A stretch of 64,000 bases of DNA from positions 1,596 through 65,595 of the forward strand of contig JAUPKF010000003.1 in NCBI GenBank assembly GCA_030837625.1. The letters are read 5' to 3'. Within the stretch, counting starts at the first letter, position 1; each line of letters starts with the position of its first letter. Source of the DNA: Patescibacteria group bacterium. Its GTDB lineage: Bacteria; Patescibacteriota; Minisyncoccia; Moranbacterales; UBA2206. Shown in pieces: positions 3,637 to 60,694 of this stretch. The notes beneath the pieces are model-generated. The model saw only the letters and a list, made by a program, of their open reading frames with translations, ran no database searches and was not told where the DNA came from. A program made the translations under genes and the position numbers.

Positions 3637-4045
3637 GGCATCCTCCTTGCCAAAAAAAGTTGAAAGCCTTCCACCAAACTGCTTCGCTTCAAAAGACTAA
3701 AAATAATCTCCTGAAATCAAGCAGTTTGGCTCGCCCCGACGTTATTCTTTGGGGCTTATATGAGGCACAACTTATGCCAGTTTTTCAAAGAGCTATTTTC
3801 TACCCCGAACGCTCTATTATAGCACATTTTGAAGAAAAAAGCAAATAAAAAAGGCCACGCCTAAGTGTGCCTCCGAAATGACAACGTTACTTTTTTCCGC
3901 AAAAAGTATCCCATGCCAGTAAATTAAAATTTATGTTTATTTTAATCCCCGTCGATTACCTGCTATTTGATTCAAAATGTCCTGACTTCCCGTTTCTCTA
4001 TTATATAAAACCAAGAGATACGCGCAAGGAAAGTTATCCACAACC

Positions 4046-4113: not shown

Positions 4114-6201
4114 TTATTTCGTATTTCGTAAAACCTGTAATTTTCTTAACTCCCCAATTTCATCTCTTATAATAGCCGCGCGCTCAAACTGAAGACTGCG
4201 CGCGGCGTCTTTCATTTCTTTTTCTTTTTGCTTGATATATCCACTGATATCTTCCAAAGTTTCCAACTCGGTAAAATCGCGCGAAACTTGCGGGTTGATT
4301 TCGTGGTCGACGATCGATTGGATTTTCTTTTTTATCGTGCGCGGAGTAATTTTATGTTTCCGGTTATATTCCATCTGCAACGCGCGCCGCCTATTTGTCT
4401 CATCAATGGCTCGGCGCATCGAACCGGTTACGGAATCGGCGTAAAGAATGACTTTTCCCCGCACGTTCCGAGCCGCCCGCCCGATAGTTTGAATGAGCGA
4501 TGTTTCGCTGCGCAAAAAACCTTCCTTGTCGGCGTCGAGAATCGCTACCAGTGACACTTCCGGCAAGTCCAAGCCTTCCCGAAGAAGATTTACCCCAACC
4601 AAAACATCAAATTCCCCGCGTCTGAGCTTTTCCAGAATTCTTATCCGGTCCAAAGTATCCACACCGCTATGCAAGTATTCCGCTTTTACTTTCGACTCTT
4701 TGAGAAAATCCGAAAGATCCTCGGCCATTTTTTTGGTCAGAGTTGTAATGAGCACCCGTTCTTTGCGCGCGATTATTTCCTTGATTTCCTCCGTCACGTC
4801 CTTCACCTGTCCTCTGGTCGGCTTTATCTCCAGCTCCGGATCAATCAATCCCGTCGGCCGAATGATTTGTTCTACCACGCCCGGTGGATTTGAATTTGGG
4901 ATTTTGGATTTGGGATTTTGGATTTGGGATTTAAGAACTTCGTAATTACCCGGGGTAGCTGATACAAATATAGCTTTATTTATTTTACGCTCAAACTCAT
5001 CAAATCTTAACGGTCTGTTGTCAAACGCGCTCGGCAAACGAAAACCGTTTTCCACTAAAGAAACTTTCCGCGAATGATCGCCATTGTACATCCCATTGAG
5101 CTGGGGAACCGTCACGTGCGATTCATCGATAACTAAAAGAAAATCCTTGGCGAAATAATCAATGAGAGTATACGGCGCTTCGCCCGGCGCGCGATCAGTA
5201 AGAAAACGAGAATAGTTTTCAATGCCGTTGCAATAGCCGATTTCGCGCATCATCTCAATGTCTTGCCTGGTTCGGCGTCGCAAACGCTCCGCCTCCAAAA
5301 GTTTATTTTGTTTTTTCAAATATTCCACTCTCTCATCCAGTTCTTTTTCGATTTCACCCATCGCGCTTTCCATCACTGGTTCGGGCACCACGAAATGTTT
5401 GGCGGGATAAATGACCGCTTTTTGCAAGTTTCCCAGCTCTTCCCCTGTCAAAAAATCATACTCGACAATCTTACTGATTTTATCTCCTACCATAGATACT
5501 CGCGTTATTACTTCCCGCCCGGGCGTCATAATTTCTAAAGTCGGACCAGTCAGACGGAATTTCCCACGCAAAAGAACATCACTGCGAGCATACTGCATAT
5601 CGATTAATTTTTTCACAATTTCATCCCTGCTCATCCGTAGGGGCGGTTCATGAACCGCCCCTACGCCGTGGCTGACAGCCAATTCCAACGTGATATCCCG
5701 ATAATATTCCGGACTGCCCAAACCGTATATGCAAGAAACCGAGGCGCAAATAATCACGTCTTTTCGCGCCATCAAAGCGGCCGTGGCGGCATGGCGCAAA
5801 CGGTCGATCTCGTCGTTAATCTGCGATTCTTTCTCGATGTAAGTGTCAGTGGAAGCAATGTAGGCTTCCGGCTGATAATAGTCATAGTACGACACGAAAT
5901 ATTCCACGGCGTTTTTTGGAAAAAATGTCCGGAACTCCTGCGCCAATTGCGCCGCCAGGGTCTTGTTGGGCGCGATGACCAACGTCGGTTTTTGCGTTTT
6001 CTCAATAACATTGGCAATCGTAAAAGTCTTCCCCGACCCCGTCACGCCCAAAAGCGTCTGGAATTTTTGATTATTTTCCAAACCCTTCACCAACTGCGAA
6101 ATCGCCCTTGGCTGATCACCTTCGGGTTTGAACTTGGAATTTATTTTAAAAATATTATTTATAGTTTTCCCTGTGTTACGTGTTACGCGACCCTCCTCCA
6201 A
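4114..6201 (-). CDS. uvrB: Excinuclease ABC subunit B (UvrB)
   Basis: The 695-aa ORF has the Walker A motif [11 protein letters not shown], UvrB helicase motifs and a C-terminal UvrB/UvrC interaction region. The true start may lie a few codons downstream of 6201. An in-frame low-complexity insertion is present (see the repeat at 4884-4936). Confidence 0.95.
4884..4936. repeat. In-frame tandem repeat (GGATTTTGGATTTGG)n inside uvrB
   Basis: Sequence is ggtggatttgaatttgggattttggatttgggattttggatttgggatttaag. It encodes ...[17 protein letters not shown]... inside UvrB. Confidence 0.7.
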
Positions 6202-13282: not shown

Positions 13283-15103
13283 TTACTCCCACTCCACCGT
13301 TCCCGGCGGCTTATTGGTAATGTCATAAAAGACATAACCGATTTCCCCAGTCGCAACTATCTTCCCGACAATTTTATCAAGAACTTTTAAGTCCATCTCA
13401 TAAAAATTAAGCGTCATGGCGTCCCGCGAATTGATCGGGCGAAGAACAATCGACTCCCTTCCCCGCTCATCAACAATCGGAATGAGCACCACGGGAAATT
13501 GCCAGATAGCGCCGTAAATCCCGGCTGATTTGATTATGCCGTTCACAATGCCGTCAATGCGCCGCAACTTATCCACCCGGTCTTTGGAAAGATCTAGGCT
13601 GTTTTCAGAAATACTGAATTCAGGCGCGCCCGCGCCGGGATTTGCCAGCAGCAGCACTCGATTGACGGCCCGCACGCTATTTGTGGCCGCCACCGATATC
13701 TCTGAAAGTTTTTTCCAATCGCGCGCTCCCCAAACCGCCAGCGGATGGGCATACGTCCTGTTGTCCCCTTGAACTCCGACGGATTTTATCGGCAAAACTT
13801 CAAAATTTATATTCGGAAACTTTTTGCTGAATAAATCGGCCGTCAAATTCCTTGCTTCTCTTGTGCCCTCTTTCGGCAACTTGGCGTCCAAACATAAACA
13901 ACGAATCGCCAGTCCCGGACCCGGAAAAGGGTGCCGCTCCACAAGGTCTTTCGGCAGTCCCAAAAGATTGCCGAGCGAGCGCACTTCGTCTTTGTAAAAT
14001 TCTACCAGCGGTTCAACCACCAGCCCCTTCTTGACCATTTCTTGAATCGCGTCCACCCGATTGTGATGGGTTTTGATTTTGTCGGCGTGCTTGGTCGCGC
14101 CGGATTCGATCGTATCCGGGTAAATTGTCCCTTGCCCCAAAAGCCACTCATCCGGATTAAGGCCCAAATCTTCGATAAGTTTGTCTTTCACATCTAAAAA
14201 AGCGGCTCCGATGATTTTTCGTTTCTCCTCCGGCTCGTAAACGTTTTTCAACCTTTGATAAAATATTTTACTGGCGTCAATACTCCTGATATTGTCAAAA
14301 TCGACTTTCTTAAAGCCAGCCTGTATCTCTTCCGATTCTTTGGAGCGCATAAATCCGGTATCGATATAAAGCCCCCAAACCCGGTCTTTGCCTAACGCTT
14401 TCGTCAAAAGAGCAAAGGCGACGTTGGAATCCACGCCGCCGCTGCACAAAATAAAAACTTTTTTTTTGCCCGCTTGCGAGCGAATCTTTTCTTCAAGATC
14501 AGCCAAAAGATTGTCCGCTTTCCAGTTTTTTTCCGCGCCGCAAATATCCAACACGAAGTTGCTCAGCATTTTCACTCCTTCTTCGGTATGGGCCACTTCC
14601 GGATGAAATTGAAAACCGTATATTTTTTTCTTCTCGTCGGCCATGGCCGTTACCGGACAATCAGCGGTGGCGCCGATAATTTGGAAACCTTCCGGCGCTT
14701 TAGCCACCGCGTCACCGTGGCTCATCCATACTTGAGTCTTTCGAGAGACATTTTTGAATATGGCGCTTTCTCCCCGAACCGACAGTTCCGCCCAGCCAAA
14801 TTCCCGCGTCTTCCCGGGCTTCACTTCGCCGCCCAGCATCTGGCCAATAAGCTGATGGCCGTAGCAAAGGCCGAGAATCGGAACACCCATTTCAAAAATA
14901 TTTTGGTCTATTCTAATAGAGTCTTCGTCATAAACCGATTGCGGTCCGCCCGAAAGAATGATACCGATGACATTTTCCTTTTTCAGCTCCGCGGCCGCGG
15001 CGCCGTTGGAATAAATTTTCGCGAGCACGTTTTGCTCGCGAATAGTTCTGGCGATCAGATGGGTATATTGCGAACCAAAATCCAAGATGGCGATATGCTT
15101 CAT
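13283..15103 (-). CDS. guaA: GMP synthase (glutamine-hydrolysing), extended form
   Basis: The 606-aa ORF has an N-terminal class-I GATase (…LGLCYGHQL…) and an ATP-PPase SGGVDS motif (…FILCSGGVDSNVAF…). Confidence 0.95.
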   Translation of the reverse strand: MKHIAILDFGSQYTHLIARTIREQNVLAKIYSNGAAAAELKKENVIGIILSGGPQSVYDEDSIRIDQNIFEMGVPILGLCYGHQLIGQMLGGEVKPGKTREFGWAELSVRGESAIFKNVSRKTQVWMSHGDAVAKAPEGFQIIGATADCPVTAMADEKKKIYGFQFHPEVAHTEEGVKMLSNFVLDICGAEKNWKADNLLADLEEKIRSQAGKKKVFILCSGGVDSNVAFALLTKALGKDRVWGLYIDTGFMRSKESEEIQAGFKKVDFDNIRSIDASKIFYQRLKNVYEPEEKRKIIGAAFLDVKDKLIEDLGLNPDEWLLGQGTIYPDTIESGATKHADKIKTHHNRVDAIQEMVKKGLVVEPLVEFYKDEVRSLGNLLGLPKDLVERHPFPGPGLAIRCLCLDAKLPKEGTREARNLTADLFSKKFPNINFEVLPIKSVGVQGDNRTYAHPLAVWGARDWKKLSEISVAATNSVRAVNRVLLLANPGAGAPEFSISENSLDLSKDRVDKLRRIDGIVNGIIKSAGIYGAIWQFPVVLIPIVDERGRESIVLRPINSRDAMTLNFYEMDLKVLDKIVGKIVATGEIGYVFYDITNKPPGTVEWE

Positions 15104-21887: not shown

Positions 21888-21966
21888 GAACGTACCGCGG
21901 AACGTACCTAGGTACGTTCCAAAAATATCCGCGAAAAAGGAGCCTTTCGGCTCCTTTCTTTTTTGA
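21888..21966. terminator. Bidirectional terminator region between trpS (+) and the phosphoglucomutase/phosphomannomutase gene (-), made of two hairpins
   Basis: The sequence GAACGTACC-gcg-GAACGTACC-TAG-GTACGTTCC is a perfect 22-bp palindrome. It is followed by aaaaaGGAGCCtttcGGCTCCtttctttttt. Confidence 0.6.
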
Positions 21967-24806: not shown

Positions 24807-25286
24807 ATGAAATACGAACTATTCTACCTGGTTGGCGCTTCCAAGGAAGCAGAGTTGGAAAATATCCGCAAAGAAGTTTCCGCTATTGTCGCTGAAAACG
24901 GCGGCGTTTTTGAGGAAAAAGAAACGCAGGAAAAAAGAAGACTGGCCTACGAAATCAAGCATGAGACCCACGGCATTTATACCGCCCAAAGATTCGAGCT
25001 GGTCGAAGCGGAAAACCTTGCCAAAATAAACCGAAAACTCAATTTGAATGCTGGAGTTCTGCGCTTCCTGATTAGCAAAGCCGACGAACTGCCCGAACTT
25101 AGATCTAAAGAAGAGCGCATCAGCGAAGAGCAGACCAAGGAAGCTCGGACGCAAAAATTCAAGGAGGAGAAAAAAGCCGAACAAAAGAAAGCTGAAGCAG
25201 TGGAAGAAAAGAAAGAAGCGGGAGATAAAAAATCCCAACCACAAGAAGACATCGACAAAAAATTAGAGGAAATACTAAACATTTAA
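24807..25286 (+). CDS. rpsF: 30S ribosomal protein S6 with a K/E-rich C-terminal extension
   Basis: The S6 core begins at MKYELFYLV. The track ORF starts at 24750. The acidic/basic tail is ~70 aa. Confidence 0.85.
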   Translation: MKYELFYLVGASKEAELENIRKEVSAIVAENGGVFEEKETQEKRRLAYEIKHETHGIYTAQRFELVEAENLAKINRKLNLNAGVLRFLISKADELPELRSKEERISEEQTKEARTQKFKEEKKAEQKKAEAVEEKKEAGDKKSQPQEDIDKKLEEILNI

Positions 25287-25287
25287 C

Positions 25288-25397
25288 CGCGATTCGAATC
25301 AACGAATGCATCCGAATCTGCGAATTTACGAATTTTTATTCGTAGCTATTCGCGGATTCGTGAATTCGAATTAATTCGTAGATTCGTATCGGTAAAA
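25288..25397 (+). promoter_or_regulatory. Copy B of the ~110-bp repeated leader element, ending directly at the ssb start
   Basis: Sequence is ccgcgattcgaatcaacgaatgcatccgaatctgcgaatttacgaatttttattcgtagctattcgcggattcgtgaattcgaattaattcgtagattcgtatcggtaaaattATG. Confidence 0.5.
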
Positions 25398-25399
25398 TT

Positions 25400-25882
25400 A
25401 TGAATGTAAACAAAGTTCTCTTGGTCGGGCGGCTGACGCGCGACCCGGAAGTAAGAAATACTTCTTCCGGACAGACTGTCGCATCGATTTCTTTGGCCAC
25501 GGGATACACTTGGAAAGATAAAAACGGCCAGAAACAGGAACGAACGGAATTTCATAACCTGGTTCTCTGGGGACGGCTGGGAGAAATTGCCGGGCAATAC
25601 CTTATCAAAGGCCAGGAAGCTTACTTTGAAGGCCGCTTGCAAACGCAAAAATATACCGACAAAACCGGCGCCGACCGATACAAAACTGAAATTGTGGTTG
25701 AAAATATGCAGCTTGGAGCGAAGCCCCGGAGCGCTTATGACTCCGGCGGAGCTGGCGGATACAACAAGCCTGCTCCTCAACCGCAATCTCCTTCCTCTCA
25801 ACCGGAAGCTCCCGCGGAAGCTCTCCCGACCATCAATTTGGATGAGGAAGAAGAAGTGAAAATCGAAGACGTACCCTTTTAA
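25400..25882 (+). CDS. ssb: Single-stranded DNA-binding protein
   Basis: The 160-aa ORF has an OB fold (…LVGRLTRDPEVR…). A G/P/Q-rich linker leads to an acidic C-terminus ending in DVPF. Confidence 0.9.
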   Translation: MNVNKVLLVGRLTRDPEVRNTSSGQTVASISLATGYTWKDKNGQKQERTEFHNLVLWGRLGEIAGQYLIKGQEAYFEGRLQTQKYTDKTGADRYKTEIVVENMQLGAKPRSAYDSGGAGGYNKPAPQPQSPSSQPEAPAEALPTINLDEEEEVKIEDVPF

Positions 25883-26209: not shown

Positions 26210-26300
26210 TCCTCACGCAACACACAACACGTAACACGTAACAAAAAAAATTGTTATATAAAATGTTATGTGTTATGTGTTATGTGCTATGTGCTATGTG
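26210..26300. repeat. Hairpin of CACGTAA and GTTATGT units, partner of 27300..27397
   Basis: Sequence is cacgcaacacacaacacgtaacacgtaac-aaaaaaaa-ttgttatataaaatgttatgtgttatgtgttatgtgctatgtg. It is the reverse-complement partner of 27307-27350. Confidence 0.55.
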
Positions 26301-26865: not shown

Positions 26866-27318
26866 ATGACAATTATCGCGATAAATAAACGCTCCAGTTT
26901 CGATTATGAAATCCTGGAAAAATTCGAGGCCGGTTTGGTTCTTTCAGGACAGGAAACAAAATCAATCAAAACCGGACATATCAGCCTCAAGGAAAGCTTC
27001 GTAACAATCAAGGGATCGGAACTGTATTTAACTAACGCGCACATTCCTTTCTACAAACACGCCGGAAACTCCGCCGCGTACGATCCGACCCGCCCGCGGA
27101 AACTGCTCTTGCGAAAAGAAGAGATCAAAAGAATCATCGGAAAGGCTCGCATAGAAGGCTTGACATTGGTGCCGATTAGAGTGTATACTAAAAAACGCTA
27201 TTTAAAGCTAGAATTTGGCATAGCTAAAGGGAAAAAGAAGTTTGACAAACGGCAAGACATCAAGAGAAAAGAAGCTGAAAGAGGGATGAGAAGAATGCTG
27301 AAGTCACATAACACGTAA
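26866..27318 (+). CDS. smpB: SsrA-binding protein SmpB
   Basis: The 150-aa ORF has SmpB core motifs and a basic C-terminal tail. Confidence 0.9.
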   Translation: MTIIAINKRSSFDYEILEKFEAGLVLSGQETKSIKTGHISLKESFVTIKGSELYLTNAHIPFYKHAGNSAAYDPTRPRKLLLRKEEIKRIIGKARIEGLTLVPIRVYTKKRYLKLEFGIAKGKKKFDKRQDIKRKEAERGMRRMLKSHNT

Positions 27319-27397
27319 CACATAGCACATAACATTTTATATAACAAAAAAAATTATTTTTTGTTACGTGTTACGTGTTGTGTGCTACGTGACAAGC
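27300..27397. repeat. Hairpin of CACGTAA/GTTACGTG units after smpB
   Basis: Sequence is cataacacgtaacacatagcacataacattttatataacaaaaaaaattattttttgttacgtgttacgtgttgtgtgctacgtg. Confidence 0.55.
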
Positions 27398-27791
27398 GGG
27401 GATGTTTGGTTTCGACAAGTTGTACGTTTAAAACAGGCAAGCCGAAGATGATAAACCTTCGTAAAATATTTATCAAACGAATAAGTGCAAACTTAATTCA
27501 AAAAGCAAAGGTTGCTTTCGCTAACGCGTTCTCAACCAATTATGCTTACGCCTTGGCTTAATATAAGCTGGCGTCATCGGACCTTCAACTCCCAATAGGA
27601 GACCTCCGGTGTTATACATTGGGATAGCGCTTATTGCATTCTCTTGGCAATATGCGTAAAATTGACATAGGGATAGGTTAAAGTAATTTTTCTTATTTTT
27701 ATCTCTAGCCGATATTATCAAATAAGATAAGCTTGTAGATTGTTTTTGATGAATAATTTTGGACATGGGTTCAATTCCCATCATCTCCACA
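27398..27791 (+). ncRNA. ssrA: tmRNA (ssrA) immediately downstream of smpB
   Basis: The 5' end GGGGAUGUUUGGUUUCGACAAG matches the canonical GGGGnUGnUUnnGGnUUCGAC pattern. An internal tag reading frame ...ANLIQKAKVAFANAFSTNYAYALA ends at UAA (27561). The 3' T-arm GGGTTCAATTCCC plus CATCTCC pairs with the 5' GGGGATG. Confidence 0.8.
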
Positions 27792-27801
27792 AGAGCGAGT
27801 T

Positions 27802-27852
27802 TCCGCCATAGGCGGATCAGCCTATGGCTGACGATTCTCGCCATCTCCACAA
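27802..27852 (+). repeat. 30-nt dual-hairpin module just after the tmRNA 3' end, followed by a second copy of an 11-nt segment of the tmRNA 3' end (direct repeat)
   Basis: The module is TCCGCCataGGCGGA + TCAGCCtatGGCTGA at 27802-27831. CATCTCCACAA occurs at 27782-27792 (within the tmRNA 3' end) and again at 27842-27852. Confidence 0.6.
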
Positions 27853-27872
27853 TAATAATTAACACCAAAATA

Positions 27873-28418
27873 ATTAGAAGATCACCCTACAAAAAACCGT
27901 TTTTCAAAAAAAGGGAACCTCGGACGAGAATCAATGATTATATACGAGCTCCCCAGATTCGAGTTGTCGATGACAGCGGAAACCAACTCGGAATAATGCC
28001 GCCTTCCCAGGCGCTGGCATTGGCCAAGGAAAAAGAGCTTGATTTGGTTGAAATCGCCCCCAATGCCAAGCCGCCCGTTTGCCGGATAATGGATTTCGGG
28101 AAATACCAATACCAGAAATCACGAGAAGAAAGACAAAACCGGGCCAGACAGAAAAAAGTCGACATTAAGGGAATCCGCATCGGCGTAAGAACCGACGATC
28201 ACGATCTGGGATTCAAAAAAGACCAAGCGGAAAAGTTTTTGAAAAAAGGCCACAAACTCAAATTGGAAATCCGCCTCCGAGGAAGGGAAAAAGCCCACCA
28301 GGATCTGGCGCGAAAAAATCTGGTTGAATTCATAAAAACCATAGAAGTGCCAAATAAACTGGAGCAAGAGGTAAAAAGATTTCCCGGAGGATTTAACGCC
28401 ATAATCGCACCGCAATAA
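27873..28418 (+). CDS. infC: Translation initiation factor IF-3, with a non-AUG start
   Basis: The IF-3 N-domain ...RINDYIRAPQIRVVDDSGNQLGIM... and the C-domain are present. The only in-frame ATG (27759) lies inside the tmRNA. The likely start is AUU at 27873 or AUC at 27930, as is typical for infC. Confidence 0.8.
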   Translation: MRRSPYKKPFFKKREPRTRINDYIRAPQIRVVDDSGNQLGIMPPSQALALAKEKELDLVEIAPNAKPPVCRIMDFGKYQYQKSREERQNRARQKKVDIKGIRIGVRTDDHDLGFKKDQAEKFLKKGHKLKLEIRLRGREKAHQDLARKNLVEFIKTIEVPNKLEQEVKRFPGGFNAIIAPQ

Positions 28419-28530
28419 CCGCGATTCGAATCAACGAATGCATCCGAATCTGCGAATTTACGAATTTTACTCTTAGCTATTCGTAGATTCGTGAATTCGA
28501 ATAAATTCGTAGATTCGGATCGGTAAAATT
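28419..28530 (+). promoter_or_regulatory. Copy C of the ~110-bp repeated leader element, ending directly at the rpmI start
   Basis: Copy C is ~95% identical to copy B. It starts right after the infC stop and ends ...cggatcggtaaaattATG. Confidence 0.5.
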
Positions 28531-28728: not shown

Positions 28729-28821
28729 AATCACGTAACACGTAACACGTAACACGTAACAAATCAGTCAAATCTATTTGTTATTTATGTTATGTGATAT
28801 GTGTTATGTGTTATGTGAATC
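28725..28821. repeat. Hairpin of CACGTAA/GTTATGT units between rpmI and rplT
   Basis: Sequence is aatcacgtaacacgtaacacgtaacacgtaac-aaatcagtcaaatctatttgttatttatgttatgtgatatgtgttatgtgttatgtg. Confidence 0.55.
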
Positions 28822-48357: not shown

Positions 48358-48673
48358 TTTTTTGCCTTATATGCTTTAATTACCCTTGCAAGGCGACCTC
48401 TCTCATATCGCTTGGTCCTTACACTCAACTTGAAAGTGATATAAGGCGAAACTAACGAGAAGACTTACAATTGCTGTAAGTATACACTTTTTCGCCTAAA
48501 AGTCAAGTTTTCGCGTAAACCACCCCCTCTTGCCAAAACCGAAGTATTTGCTATAATCAATTTGTTTTGTATACTGTAAATAGTCCTTGCGGGCTATTTA
48601 AAAATCTCAAAATATATTAGATGGCTGCTGTTTCAACAATTTAGCCATTTGGCAATTTTACAATTTAATTTAT

Positions 48674-48767
48674 TCCGCGGTAGCTTCAGCCGTAGGCTGA
48701 TCAGCCTTTGGCTGACAATGGTAGAGCAGTTTCCGCCGTAGGCGGACCAGCCTATGGCTGGGACTGT
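48674..48767 (+). pseudogene. Decayed partial copy of tRNA-Asn (5' part through the anticodon), interrupted by two 30-nt dual-hairpin insertions
   Basis: The decayed copy reads TCCGCGGTAGCT[TCAGCCGTAGGCTGATCAGCCTTTGGCTGA]CAATGGTAGAGCAGTT[TCCGCCGTAGGCGGACCAGCCTATGGCTGG]GACTGT. The intact gene at 49034 reads TCCGCGGTAGCTCAATGGTAGAGCAGTTGACTGTTAATC.... The 5' flank tattCCGCGG is identical in both. Confidence 0.7.
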
Positions 48768-48783
48768 ACATTAAAATAAAAGG

Positions 48784-49029
48784 ATGTTTATCGTTTATAT
48801 TTTACGCAGTTTAAAAAATAAAAAAAAATACACTGGTCAAACTTCAAAAGACGTTTTCAAAAGGTTATCAGAACACAATAGAAATTGCAATAAATGGACA
48901 AAAGAAAATGGTCCATTTAAGCTGATTCATTTTGAAGAATATCCATCAAGGACAGAGGCTATAAAAAGAGAACGTTTTTTGAAGTCTGGTCAAGGCAGAA
49001 AATGGCTGGATGAAAATATTAAAAACTAA
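48784..49029 (+). CDS. GIY-YIG nuclease-family small protein (YhbQ/COG2827-like)
   Basis: The 81-aa ORF reads MFIVYILRSLKNKKKYTGQTSKDVFKRLSEHNR..., with GIY...YTG and R..EHN motifs. It sits between the partial and the intact tRNA-Asn. Confidence 0.75.
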   Translation: MFIVYILRSLKNKKKYTGQTSKDVFKRLSEHNRNCNKWTKENGPFKLIHFEEYPSRTEAIKRERFLKSGQGRKWLDENIKN

Positions 49030-49033
49030 ATAT

Positions 49034-49105
49034 TCCGCGGTAGCTCAATGGTAGAGCAGTTGACTGTTAATCAATTGGTTGCAGGTTCGAGTCCTGCCCG
49101 CGGAG
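49034..49105 (+). tRNA. tRNA-Asn (anticodon GUU)
   Basis: Sequence is TCCGCGGTAGCTCAATGGTAGAGCAGTTGACTGTTAATCAATTGGTTGCAGGTTCGAGTCCTGCCCGCGGAG. The acceptor stem is TCCGCGG/CCGCGGA, the anticodon loop is CT-GTT-AA and the T-loop is GGTTCGAGTCC. Confidence 0.9.
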
Positions 49106-49333
49106 CACAGTATGACAAAGAGCGGCGAAAATGTCGCTTTTTGTTTTGTTTCAAAAATGACAAAAAATGTCATCTTTGACACTGGAAATCGCAAAAGCTA
49201 CAATTAAAACAAGTTGGTTTACATTTGACTTTCCAATATAAGCTAAATGAATATGTTTGTTGATATTGAAAACATAAACATATCGCTGTGATGCAGTAAA
49301 ATTCAGGAATTAATTCAGTAATAAAAAATTAAA

Positions 49334-59256: not shown

Positions 59257-59514
59257 CGCACTTCCTCCTTTTTAAAGAACTGCCATTGCTATTGCCAAAA
59301 AATAACAACTAAAAAGCCGGCCCAGATGGCCGACTTTGGTTTTTTGAAAATTCTACTGAATCTTACGCTTTTATTTCCACGAAACCAAAACCGGCCTTCC
59401 GGATAAACCAGGAGAAGAAATAAAAGAAGCTATAGAGGTTTTGGCTCGCTGAAATTTTCATACTAAAAGTCTATCATCCTGAAAAAATCTGTCAAGCTGG
59501 CATAAAAAATATCG

Positions 59515-59540
59515 GGCGATCGCGTGGCGATCGCCCTAGT
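59515..59540 (-). terminator. Perfect GC-rich palindrome GGGCGATCGC-gtg-GCGATCGCCC, a terminator after small ORF D
   Basis: The hairpin is followed on the minus strand by gauauuuuuuaug. Confidence 0.5.
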
Positions 59541-60439: not shown

Positions 60440-60662
60440 AGAAAAACCTCCTTTTGAAAAATTTGTTTTACGTTGAAAACAAAACAGCCACCCCGTTGGT
60501 GGTTGTTACAATGAGCTATTTTTCTACACTATTTTACGAAACTCTAAAGACAACCACCGGGTGTTGGGTAAGCAACAACAACAATAGATTGTCTAATCGG
60601 TTTCGCATAGGGAAAGTTTATCATAAAAAATAAAAAATTGTCAAACATACAATTTGAGGGCA

Positions 60663-60694
60663 GGGACGCGGAAAGGATCTTCCGCGTCCCTGTT
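60663..60694. terminator. Perfect palindrome CAGGGACGCGGAAAGGATCTTCCGCGTCCCTG (bidirectional terminator-like)
   Basis: A 14-bp stem lies immediately downstream of small ORF G on the minus strand. It is followed on the plus strand by tttgtcattt. Confidence 0.5.

What the first reader, a model, noticed from the sequence alone, without database searches (positions are those of the whole stretch)
27782..27852. The same dual-hairpin module inserted after the tmRNA 3' end, flanked by an 11-nt direct repeat
Immediately after the tmRNA acceptor end (…CATCTCCACAA at 27782-27792) come 9 nt, then TCCGCCataGGCGGA-TCAGCCtatGGCTGA (27802-27831), 9 nt more, and CATCTCCACAA again (27842-27852). This is a second, independent instance of the 30-nt module associated with a tRNA-like structure, here with a target-site-duplication-like repeat. 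The module appears to home to tRNA or tmRNA acceptor/T-arm DNA. It could be a MITE-like element or the footprint of a nuclease or recombinase. It also sits in the infC 5' region, so it may affect the unusual non-AUG start of infC.
Basis: seen in the sequence. Interest (0 to 1): 0.6.

Follow-up and report, generated by a model that had tools for sequence, protein, structure and literature searches.

The report
Broken spare tmRNA end with palindrome
The 11-base repeat after the tmRNA gene is a second, disabled copy of the gene's 3' end, split by a 30-base double-hairpin palindrome from an apparently undescribed family of tiny insertions found across many bacterial phyla, often beside small GIY-YIG endonuclease genes.

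Summary

The 11-nt repeat is not a target-site duplication. Removing the 30-nt module leaves GCGAG-TTCGATT-CTCGC-CATCTCCAC, a perfect T-arm plus acceptor strand. It matches 26/26 the working tmRNA 3' end of sister lineages (L132, L216). A third lineage (L128) has the mirror arrangement. Its spare copy equals this window's working T-arm and is split in the T-loop by a different GC palindrome.

The module is a real insertion of exactly 30 nt with no duplication, entering TTy^rAa sites. More than 120 genome loci in many phyla carry it, including in-frame insertions in proteins (SAxGGSAxGG). Stems covary and loops vary.

It is a conserved part of a cassette: tRNA 5' fragment plus module, then an 81-aa GIY-YIG gene, then an intact tRNA. 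That cassette occurs at tRNA-Asn in this window. Relatives carry GIY-YIG or LAGLIDADG genes in the ssrA-infC spacer.

Best reading: this is a scar of gene-end swapping driven by a homing endonuclease, with the endonuclease gene since lost, later hit by a mobile double-hairpin element. A 132-nt block of perfect identity with an 82%-identical relative remains unexplained. It points to either selection or recent transfer.

The parts
27398..27792 (+). tmRNA gene (ssrA). Its working T-arm, allele A (ATGGG-TTCAATT-CCCAT), is at 27765-27781.
   Evidence: ARAGORN; Rfam RF00023 at 156.5 bits; sequence checked.
27782..27792 (+). First CATCTCCACAA: the acceptor 3' strand (CATCTCC), the discriminator A, then CAA. 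CCA is not encoded.
   Evidence: It pairs with the 5' end GGGGATG of the tmRNA.
27795..27801 (+). 5' half of the spare T-arm (allele B): stem GCGAG plus the first two loop bases TT.
   Evidence: Together with 27832-27841 it reads GCGAG-TTCGATT-CTCGC, the T-arm of L132 and L216.
27802..27831 (.). 30-nt double-hairpin palindromic module (TCCGCC-ATA-GGCGGA | TCAGCC-TAT-GGCTGA) inserted in the T-loop of the spare copy at TT^CGATT.
   Evidence: The family was found in more than 120 public genome loci. Covariation.
27832..27841 (+). 3' half of the spare T-arm: loop bases CGATT plus stem CTCGC.
27842..27852 (+). Second CATCTCCACAA: the acceptor strand of the spare 3' end. In relative L122 only CATCTCCAC is shared.
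27873..28418 (+). infC (IF3), with its likely ATT start conserved as ATT-AGA-AGA in L122 and L128. The longest ORF from TTG at 27759 runs through the tmRNA end and the module and is an over-call.
   Evidence: Pfam IF3_N/IF3_C.
48674..48767 (+). Displaced copy of tRNA-Asn positions 1-35. It carries two modules: 48686-48715 in the D-arm (T12^C13) and 48732-48761 in the anticodon stem (T29^G30).
   Evidence: and alignment A2.
48784..49029 (+). 81-aa single-domain GIY-YIG nuclease gene (UPF0213/YhbQ-like).
   Evidence: Pfam PF01541, E 2.8e-17; PDB 1zg2 UPF0213, E 2e-5; PHROG homing endonuclease, weak.
49034..49106 (+). Intact tRNA-Asn(GTT), starting 4 nt after the GIY-YIG stop codon.
   Evidence: ARAGORN; Rfam.
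48530..48557 (+). Promoter-like site (TTGCCA-16-TG-TATAAT, 11/12) upstream of the fragment-GIY-YIG-tRNA-Asn unit. A terminator-like hairpin at 49114-49145 closes the unit.
   Evidence: consensus scan only.

Best explanation
**Shown.** The 71-nt feature is a spare, disabled 3' end of the tmRNA gene. It is a T-arm plus acceptor strand of allele B (GCGAG/CTCGC) sitting directly behind the working 3' end of allele A (ATGGG/CCCAT). Its T-loop is split by a 30-bp GC-rich double-hairpin palindrome. That palindrome belongs to a low-copy family found in many phyla. It enters TTy^rAa sites as exactly 30 bp without target duplication, it is tolerated in frame inside proteins, and its stems are maintained by covariation.

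**Inferred.**
- The duplication is the scar left when a free-standing homing-endonuclease gene moves into a gene together with a replacement gene end. This is the 'gene hybrid' architecture known from fungal mitochondria. The tRNA-Asn locus of this window shows it in mirror image: displaced 5' half with modules, then GIY-YIG, then the restored tRNA.
- At ssrA the endonuclease ORF has since been lost. Relatives still carry GIY-YIG or LAGLIDADG genes in the same ssrA-infC spacer.
- The module probably survives in the spare copy because the T-loop sequence TTCGA fits its target motif, and because only a dead copy can tolerate the insertion.

**Speculative.** The single-domain GIY-YIG nuclease may be what mobilises the module.
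For: 1. With the module deleted, the second copy is GCGAGTTCGATTCTCGCCATCTCCAC. ARAGORN accepts it in place of the native end. It is 26/26 identical to the working tmRNA end of L132 and L216.
2. L128-L131 show the reciprocal layout: body-B-CATCTCCAC-TCGC-A*-CATCTCCAC. With its 20-nt palindrome removed, A* is 26/26 identical to this window's working end.
3. Both alleles serve as working T-arms among close relatives, and they do not follow SmpB or tmRNA-body similarity.
4. Of 39 distinct tmRNA loci sampled through SmpB, only these two lineages have a second copy. Four others carry endonuclease genes next to ssrA/infC: GIY-YIG in L139, L150 and L195, and LAGLIDADG plus GIY-YIG in L196. In L150 a degenerate T-arm/acceptor remnant sits just before the GIY-YIG start.
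5. The same window holds a tRNA-Asn 5' half with two modules, then GIY-YIG, then intact tRNA-Asn.
6. Four GIY-YIG homologue lineages (66-81% identity) were fetched without reference to the module. All have this cassette, and three of the four, like this window, carry a module at the identical site GCAGTT^GRCTGT. The fourth (L240) has only the D-arm module, because its fragment ends before that site.
7. In the module-selected loci, 10 of 11 GIY-YIG ORFs lie within 600 nt of a module. Counted the other way, 11 of 128 modules lie that close to a GIY-YIG ORF, against 2.0 for random positions.
8. Insertions are exact at 30 nt with no duplication. This is seen in the window, L022, L077, L095, L096 and L120, and as filled versus empty at the D-arm site between the window and L255.
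9. 242 of 256 hairpins are Watson-Crick at both variable pairs, against 113.5 (max 132) when shuffled.
10. Precedent: mobile endonuclease ORFs carrying a foreign gene end and displacing the native one (Allomyces atp6; Glomus atp6, atp9, cox2, nad3) are described in PMC3630166.
Against: - No endonuclease ORF lies between ssrA and infC in this window or in L122 or L128. Its loss, flush with the repeats, has to be assumed twice.
- Which copy is native and which was imported cannot be decided.
- The window and L122 are 81.6% identical over 5.2 kb, yet they share a perfect 132-nt run (27719-27851) covering the tmRNA end and the whole spare copy. The next longest run is 46 nt. A decaying relic should not be that conserved, so either it is under selection or the block was exchanged recently.
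- Two lineages carry different palindromes at almost the same T-loop position. That could equally mean selection for disrupting the spare T-arm.
- No cleavage activity or target is known for these 81-aa GIY-YIG proteins.
- GIY-YIG genes next to ssrA in L139, L150, L195 and L196 have no canonical module nearby.
Confidence: 0.65

Rival explanations
1. The split spare T-arm is kept because it does something. It might act as a structured 5' leader or processing signal for the infC-rpmI-rplT message, which starts 21 nt downstream. Alternatively, the GC-rich insert may be selected because it stops the spare T-arm/acceptor from competing with the real one during pre-tmRNA folding and processing.
For: - A 132-nt perfect identity block with L122 in a locus that is 81.6% identical overall.
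- Both T-stem halves and the acceptor strand are intact in the window and in L128.
- Two different palindromes sit at nearly the same T-loop position in two lineages.
- There is no terminator between ssrA and infC, and only weak promoter-like matches, so co-transcription is plausible.
- The fold is strong.
- Orthologous modules in the tRNA-Asn cassette keep their stems while their loops drift.
Against: - 37 of 39 sampled tmRNA loci, including close relatives L132, L214 and L216, have no such element, and infC still starts 20-40 nt or more downstream.
- The T-loop matches the module's general target motif, so repeated hits need no selection.
- The perfect block can be a recent conversion tract. 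It ends exactly at the end of the acceptor repeat.
Confidence: 0.2
2. The two CATCTCCAC copies are attL/attR cores left by an integrase-type genomic island that integrated into the 3' end of ssrA, a classic island target, and was later almost entirely deleted.
For: The 3' end of ssrA is duplicated as a direct repeat. The spare copy is a different allele, as expected if an element carried its own copy of the gene end.
Against: - No integrase, or any island gene, is seen in this window or in the related loci. The neighbours are rpsF-ssb-rpsR-efp-smpB and infC-rpmI-rplT.
- Only 4 nt separate the working end from the spare T-arm.
- The genes actually found in this spacer in relatives are homing endonucleases.
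- The same window shows the endonuclease version of this architecture at tRNA-Asn.
Confidence: 0.07
3. A MITE-like element of about 49-60 nt inserted after the tmRNA, duplicated an 11-nt target, and specifically homes to tRNA/tmRNA acceptor or T-arm DNA.
For: - A direct 11-nt repeat flanks the insert.
- Modules are enriched near tRNA genes: 20 of 128 against 7.5 expected.
Against: - The sequence between repeat and module is the two halves of a T-arm.
- In L122 the repeat is only the 9 nt of acceptor strand.
- All sites with a known empty state show no duplication.
- Most modules are not near tRNA genes, and many are inside coding frames.
Confidence: 0.05

Closest known systems
Mobile endonuclease ORFs that carry a replacement gene end ('gene hybrids': Allomyces macrogynus atp6; Glomus atp6, atp9, cox2, nad3; PMC3630166)
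   Same: - A gene core is followed by one version of the gene end, with a second, divergent version of the same end close by.
- The endonuclease genes are of GIY-YIG or LAGLIDADG type.
- The end alleles are exchanged between lineages.
- The tRNA-Asn locus here has all the parts. The ssrA locus has the two ends, and relatives have the endonuclease genes in the same spacer.
   Different: - The hosts are Patescibacteria chromosomes, not mitochondria.
- The targets are RNA genes (tRNA, tmRNA), not protein genes.
- At tRNA-Asn it is the 5' end that is duplicated.
- At ssrA the endonuclease ORF is missing.
- The nuclease is an 81-aa catalytic domain with no DNA-binding domain.
- The displaced fragments carry palindromic inserts.
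Mitochondrial double-hairpin elements (DHEs) of chytrid fungi and fission yeasts (Paquin et al. 2000, as cited in PMC10085805)
   Same: - Short GC-rich elements made of two adjacent hairpins.
- Found in intergenic DNA and inside structural RNA genes.
- Identical or near-identical across species.
- Suspected to be mobile, with an unknown mechanism.
   Different: - These are bacterial and spread over many phyla.
- They have a fixed 30-bp size with 6-bp stems and 3-nt loops.
- They insert in frame in protein genes.
- They are linked with GIY-YIG cassettes.
- Sequence relatedness to DHEs was not tested.
Rickettsia palindromic elements (RPEs)
   Same: Both are palindromic selfish DNA that inserts in frame into protein-coding genes and into RNA genes. 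This comparison rests on my own knowledge; RPE insertion in Rickettsia ssrA is from memory and was not checked here.
   Different: - RPEs are about 100-150 bp, high copy, and confined to one genus.
- This element is 30 bp, low copy (3 in 64 kb here, and 1 in about 300 kb of related DNA) and present in many phyla.
REP/REPIN elements mobilised by RAYT transposases, and IS200/IS605-derived palindrome-associated elements
   Same: Both are inverted doublets of short GC-rich hairpins, inserted without target duplication at a short preferred motif.
   Different: - REPs are extragenic, high copy and lineage-specific in sequence, and are tied to a Y1 transposase gene.
- Here 40% of copies sit in coding frames, copy number is low, the sequence is shared across phyla, and the recurrent neighbour is a GIY-YIG nuclease.
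Genomic islands integrated into the 3' end of ssrA by tyrosine integrases
   Same: Both show duplication of the 3' terminal segment of the tmRNA gene as a direct repeat.
   Different: There is no integrase and no island here, and the repeats are 49 nt apart.

Membership tests
Classical MITE | Target-site duplication flanking the element | tested here: not met
   Module insertions are exactly 30 nt with no duplicated flank wherever an uninterrupted copy exists. The 11-nt repeat is the acceptor strand of a second gene end.
Classical MITE | Terminal inverted repeats matching those of an autonomous transposase-encoding element | not tested
   The module is itself a palindrome. No larger element ending in single hairpins was seen in the window, but no systematic search was made.
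REP/REPIN-RAYT | Extragenic location and high copy number within a genome | tested here: not met
   51 of 128 copies lie in stop-free frames of at least 150 aa. There are 3 copies in this 64-kb window and 1 in about 300 kb of related Patescibacteria DNA.
REP/REPIN-RAYT | Inverted doublet of hairpin-forming units | tested here: met
   Two 15-nt hairpin units lie head to head. Stem covariation is 242 of 256 against 113.5 when shuffled.
REP/REPIN-RAYT | Associated Y1 (RAYT/IS200-type) transposase gene | not tested
   The ORFs of the window were not screened for Y1 transposases. The only recurrent neighbour found is GIY-YIG.
Mitochondrial double-hairpin elements | Two adjacent GC-rich hairpins in an AT-richer genome, in intergenic DNA and RNA genes, conserved across species | tested here: met
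   Module GC is 72% against 44% for the window. Copies lie in tRNA/tmRNA gene fragments. The same sequence family occurs in many phyla.
Mitochondrial double-hairpin elements | Sequence homology to described DHEs; mitochondrial host | not tested
The hosts are bacteria, so at most this is an analogue.
Endonuclease-ORF 'gene hybrid' (replacement gene end) | Two divergent copies of one gene end, one contiguous with the gene core | tested here: met
   At ssrA, allele A is working and allele B is spare, differing at all five T-stem pairs. At tRNA-Asn there are 5' half copies.
Endonuclease-ORF 'gene hybrid' (replacement gene end) | Homing-endonuclease ORF between or beside the two copies | tested here: inconclusive
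   Met at tRNA-Asn (GIY-YIG at 48784-49029). Not met at ssrA in this window. Endonuclease ORFs are present in or beside the same spacer in L139, L150, L195 and L196.
Endonuclease-ORF 'gene hybrid' (replacement gene end) | One copy of foreign origin (allele phylogeny disagrees with host phylogeny) | tested here: inconclusive
   T-arm alleles A and B do not track SmpB or tmRNA-body identity among six relatives. The sample is small, and which copy is foreign is unresolved.
Endonuclease-ORF 'gene hybrid' (replacement gene end) | Endonuclease cleaves the uninterrupted target gene | not testable with these tools
   This needs biochemistry.
Integrase-mediated ssrA island | Integrase gene and island DNA between the direct repeats | tested here: not met
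   Only 49 nt lie between the repeats, and no integrase appears among neighbouring genes in the window or in relatives.
Intrinsic terminator of ssrA | GC-rich hairpin followed by a T-run | tested here: not met
   No terminator-like site was found in 27250-27950. Module flanks are T-rich upstream and A-rich downstream, the reverse of a terminator.

The most novel reading that the evidence does not exclude
The 30-bp double-hairpin palindrome and the 81-aa single-domain GIY-YIG (UPF0213) nucleases form a two-part selfish system not described before. The nuclease would recognise or cut the palindrome and/or TTy^rAa sites. That would let both the palindrome and the nuclease cassette spread, within genomes and across phyla, into tRNA and tmRNA genes and in frame into essential proteins such as ValRS. 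The palindrome kept in every cassette would be the nuclease's own site, serving for immunity, autoregulation or mobilisation. This would give the large UPF0213/YhbQ-like family a function and would define a new minimal class of bacterial mobile DNA.
Probability: 0.25. Interest if true: 0.85.

Novelty: new variant of a known kind. Interest (0 to 1): 0.62.

Why it matters
1. It shows that tmRNA and tRNA genes of Patescibacteria are arenas for endonuclease-driven swapping of gene ends. That process has so far been documented mainly for mitochondrial protein genes.
2. It brings to light a 30-bp palindromic insertion shared by many phyla. It is maintained by stem covariation, tolerated as a 10-residue SAxGGSAxGG insert in conserved proteins, and fixed inside GIY-YIG cassettes. 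I found no description of it in the searchable literature.
3. It offers a concrete, testable role for the very common single-domain GIY-YIG 'UPF0213' proteins.
4. There is a practical consequence. Gene callers extend infC through the tmRNA end and the palindrome, giving 217-219 aa calls, and the spare gene ends can mislead tRNA/tmRNA and att-site annotation.

Tried and rejected
- **Target-site duplication.** Rejected.
- **Terminator function.** No terminator-like site was found, and the flank polarity is the wrong way round.
- **Known RNA family.** Rfam at gathering thresholds finds only the tmRNA and the two tRNAs.
- **Modules insert into loops of pre-existing hairpins.** This idea came from the T-loop site and from nested modules in L067 and L245. 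Flank complementarity is no better than for permuted flanks: mean best stem 3.13 against 2.97 +/- 0.09. Rejected as a general rule.
- **The whole 30-mer is a perfect palindrome.** Only 6 of 126 are. The loops vary independently, apart from A at loop-1 position 3 and T at loop-2 position 1.
- **Footprint of a larger element with single-hairpin ends.** There are no isolated exact hairpin units in the window.
- **Integrase island.** No integrase was found.
- **Showing the protein insertions against solved structures.**
  - ValRS aligns with gaps at the module peptide.
  - UvrA was ambiguous, because the module lies where a whole domain is absent.
  - The ValRS case was settled with 14 orthologues that all read F-NPD without the 10 residues.
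- **Literature searches.** I searched for GIY-YIG with tRNA genes or CPR, for GIY-YIG with tmRNA, for palindromic in-frame elements, and for the literal DNA and peptide strings. Nothing on this element turned up.
- **Viral contigs.** About 14 genuine modules were found, but without GIY-YIG genes or tRNAs nearby. This says little about the vector.

Full report
**1. Observation.** The window carries a tmRNA gene at 27398-27790/27792 (ARAGORN; Rfam RF00023, 156.5 bits).
- CATCTCCACAA at 27782-27792
- GAGCGAGTT at 27793-27801
- the 30-mer TCCGCCATAGGCGGA-TCAGCCTATGGCTGA at 27802-27831
- CGATTCTCGC at 27832-27841 (10 nt, not 9)
- CATCTCCACAA at 27842-27852

The 30-mer with up to 3 mismatches occurs twice in the window against 0 expected. 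The six exact hairpin units of the looser pattern all lie in three dual modules at 27802, 48686 and 48732. The exact 11-mer occurs only at these two places. The 60 nt after the tmRNA fold much better than shuffles (RNA z -5.2, DNA z -4.7).

**2. What the 11-nt repeat is.** Deleting the 30-nt module joins GCGAG-TT to CGATT-CTCGC. That is a canonical 5-bp T-stem with a 7-nt TTCGATT loop, and it is followed by the acceptor 3' strand CATCTCC and the discriminator A.
- ARAGORN accepts a tmRNA in which this arm replaces the native ATGGG-TTCAATT-CCCAT arm.
- The module-deleted string GCGAGTTCGATTCTCGCCATCTCCAC is 26/26 identical to the working tmRNA 3' end of relatives L132 and L216, whose SmpB proteins are 73-75% identical to this one.

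The repeat is therefore the acceptor strand of a second, disabled 3' end.

**3. Relatives.** The SmpB-ssrA-infC-rpmI-rplT order is conserved.
- The nearest relative, L122-L125 (SmpB 86%), has the same spare copy and an identical module.
- L128-L131 (SmpB 73%) show the mirror image. Their working arm is GCGAG/CTCGC. Their spare copy is ATGGG-TTC[CCTGCCTGCCGGCAGGCAGG]AATT-CCCAT-CATCTCCAC. With the 20-nt palindrome removed, it is 26/26 identical to this window's working end.
- L132, L214 and L216 have one end only. L214 uses allele A, and L132 and L216 use allele B.
- The two alleles do not follow SmpB or tmRNA-body similarity.
- In an SmpB-anchored sample of 39 distinct tmRNA loci, only the window/L122 and L128 lineages have a second acceptor copy.

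**4. Endonuclease genes at the same place.** In that same sample the ssrA-infC spacer holds GIY-YIG genes in L139, L150 and L195.
- In L150 a degenerate T-arm/acceptor-like remnant sits directly before the start codon.
- L196 has a LAGLIDADG-type ORF starting right after the tmRNA, plus a GIY-YIG gene after infC.
- Other inverted-repeat insertions occupy the spacer in L214, L216 and L139.

The spacer is therefore a recurrent landing site for homing-endonuclease genes and small repeats.

**5. The sister case in this window.** At 48674-48767 lies a copy of tRNA-Asn positions 1-35.
- It is interrupted by two modules, at T12^C13 and at T29^G30, each exactly 30 nt with no duplication.
- After 16 nt comes an 81-aa GIY-YIG gene at 48784-49029 (Pfam E 2.8e-17; nearest solved relatives are UPF0213 proteins).
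- Four nt after its stop codon lies the intact tRNA-Asn.
- A strong promoter-like site (48530-48557) and a terminator-like hairpin (49114-49145) bracket the unit. This suggests, by inference, one transcript: fragment, GIY-YIG, tRNA.
- Four homologue lineages of this GIY-YIG (66-81% identity) were fetched blind to the module. All show the same cassette, and three of them, like this window, have a module at the same site GCAGTT^GRCTGT. The fourth (L240) has only the D-arm module, because its fragment ends before that site.
- The D-arm module is present in the window and L240 but absent in L255, a clean filled/empty difference.
- Orthologous modules keep their stems, vary in their loops, and show one compensated stem change.

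- Most are Patescibacteria. Others are Kiritimatiellae, Planctomycetes, Verrucomicrobia, Omnitrophota, Ignavibacteria, Bacteroidota (including an isolate), Chlorobi and Gammaproteobacteria MAGs.
- The consensus is tTy|TCCGCC-nnA-GGCGGA-TCCGCC-Tnn-GGCGGA|rAa.
- Where uninterrupted copies exist, the flanking T and A bases belong to the target.
- 242 of 256 hairpins are Watson-Crick at both variable stem pairs, against 113.5 (max 132) when partners are shuffled.
- Modules are depleted in coding frames: 51 of 128 against about 90 for random positions. Of those 51, 35 are in the one frame that reads (F)SAxGGSAxGG(K/E/N/D).
- In a Saccharibacteria ValRS the ten residues sit between F and NPD. These are adjacent in all 14 nearest orthologues.
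- Nested modules occur in L067 and L245.
- Copy number is low: 3 in this window and 1 in about 300 kb of related DNA.
- 20 of 128 modules lie within 500 nt of a tRNA or tmRNA gene, against 7.5 expected. 11 of 128 lie within 600 nt of a GIY-YIG ORF, against 2.0 expected, and 10 of the 11 GIY-YIG ORFs in those loci have a module beside them. In these cases the module lies in a dead tRNA fragment.

**7. Mechanism.**

*Shown:* the anatomy, the exact 30-nt insertions, the reciprocal alleles, the endonuclease genes at the same sites in relatives, and the conserved cassette.

*Inferred:* the spare tmRNA end is a scar of endonuclease-mediated gene-end replacement, as documented for Allomyces atp6 and Glomus atp6, atp9, cox2 and nad3. 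There, a mobile LAGLIDADG or GIY-YIG ORF brings a foreign gene end and displaces the native one (PMC3630166). In this window the ORF has been lost. The module then entered the T-loop, whose TTCGA sequence fits the target motif. It persists there because the copy is dead.

*Speculative:* the single-domain GIY-YIG nuclease recognises or mobilises the module.

**8. What does not fit neatly.** The window and L122 are 81.6% identical over 5.2 kb. Yet they share a perfect 132-nt run at 27719-27851, covering the last 72 nt of the tmRNA and the entire spare copy. It ends exactly at the end of CATCTCCAC, and the next longest run is 46 nt. This means either purifying selection on the spare copy or a recent conversion or transfer tract. 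Two lineages also carry different palindromes at nearly the same T-loop position. That fits a shared target preference (TTC^AA in L128) as well as it fits selection for disabling the spare arm. For these reasons I give the functional-element rival 0.2.

**9. Comparison with known systems.** The closest mechanistic precedent is the mitochondrial 'gene hybrid' made by mobile endonuclease ORFs. The closest analogue of the module is the mitochondrial double-hairpin element. That element is GC-rich, found in intergenic DNA and rRNA genes, identical across species, and of unknown mechanism (PMC10085805). Rickettsia palindromic elements share the in-frame insertion habit (my own knowledge). The module fails the tests for a classical MITE (no duplication), for REP/REPIN (not extragenic, low copy), for an intrinsic terminator and for an integrase island. 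Searches for the literal DNA and peptide strings and for topic combinations found no description of this element. The library is incomplete, so novelty is provisional.

**10. Verdict.** The locus records swapping of tmRNA 3' ends between lineages, plus an insertion of a small cross-phylum palindrome that appears to be undescribed. Interest is 0.62. Novelty is a new variant of known kinds: endonuclease gene-end replacement and double-hairpin selfish DNA.

Noticed in passing
window 27759-28418; L122 3833-4486: The longest infC ORF, and the public gene calls of 217-219 aa, start at a TTG inside the tmRNA T-arm and read through the spare copy and the module. The conserved start is ATT at 27873 (ATT-AGA-AGA in L122 and L128), so infC is probably over-called in these genomes.
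   Followed up: partly
window 5636-5665, 15018-15042, 21899-21920, 59514-59536, 60661-60692: Other long perfect GC-rich palindromes are present. One example is the 30-nt CGTAGGGGCGGTTCATGAACCGCCCCTACG; another has a 13-bp stem at 60661. The window holds 40 GC-rich perfect hairpins against about 15 in shuffles. They may be further families of palindromic insertions.
   Followed up: no
window 26220-26300, 27300-27395, 28730-28820; also 25280-25400 and 28440-28530: Spacers between the translation genes hold large inverted repeats built from tandem heptamers, (CACGTAA)n ... (TTAYGTG)n. A second family is built on GAATTCG/TACGAAT-type repeats. Similar repeats flank a module in L090 and follow the tmRNA in L214.
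   Followed up: no
L128-L131, about 3897-3940 (after the tmRNA): A different 20-nt perfect palindrome, CCTGCCTGCCGGCAGGCAGG, splits the spare T-loop at TTC^AATT. This is the same kind of target as the 30-nt module, which hints at one insertion mechanism serving several palindrome families.
   Followed up: partly
L196 about 888-1340 and 1890-2168: A LAGLIDADG-type ORF (MKKIKKLKPYVAGYIAGLIDGEGT...) starts 1-2 nt after the tmRNA 3' end. A GIY-YIG gene sits between infC and rpmI.
   Followed up: partly
L255 1247-1446; L240 1247-1446; L256: After the GIY-YIG gene, the second tRNA-Asn 5' half also stops at GACTGT. It is followed by another small ORF with an HNH-like ...YKGGKCxxCGY motif. This suggests stacked endonuclease cassettes at the tRNA-Asn anticodon site.
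   Followed up: no
L003 about 4700-4735; L139 about 1805-1840; L012 about 4630 and 6450: A different conserved hairpin, (c/g)attccgagcgaagtcgaggaat, lies just upstream of GIY-YIG start codons in a Kiritimatiellae MAG and a Patescibacteria contig, and next to modules in L012. It may be another GIY-YIG-associated palindrome family.
   Followed up: no
L067 7415-7470; L245 855-945: Modules are nested inside the loop of another module's hairpin. There are also compound hairpin insertions in the D-arm of the tRNA-Asn fragment.
   Followed up: partly
L216 1635-1740; L139 1721-1810: A shared inverted-repeat element beginning TTCGACTCGTCCC... follows the tmRNA end in two different lineages.
   Followed up: no
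L221-L239 (IMG/VR contigs): About 14 genuine modules with TT...AA flanks occur on contigs classed as viral. None has a GIY-YIG gene or a tRNA nearby.
   Followed up: partly
L095 6115-6620: An intact tRNA-Ser(GGA) is followed by a GIY-YIG gene and then a nearly full-length second tRNA-Ser(GGA). ARAGORN recognises the second copy only after the module in its D-loop is removed.
   Followed up: partly
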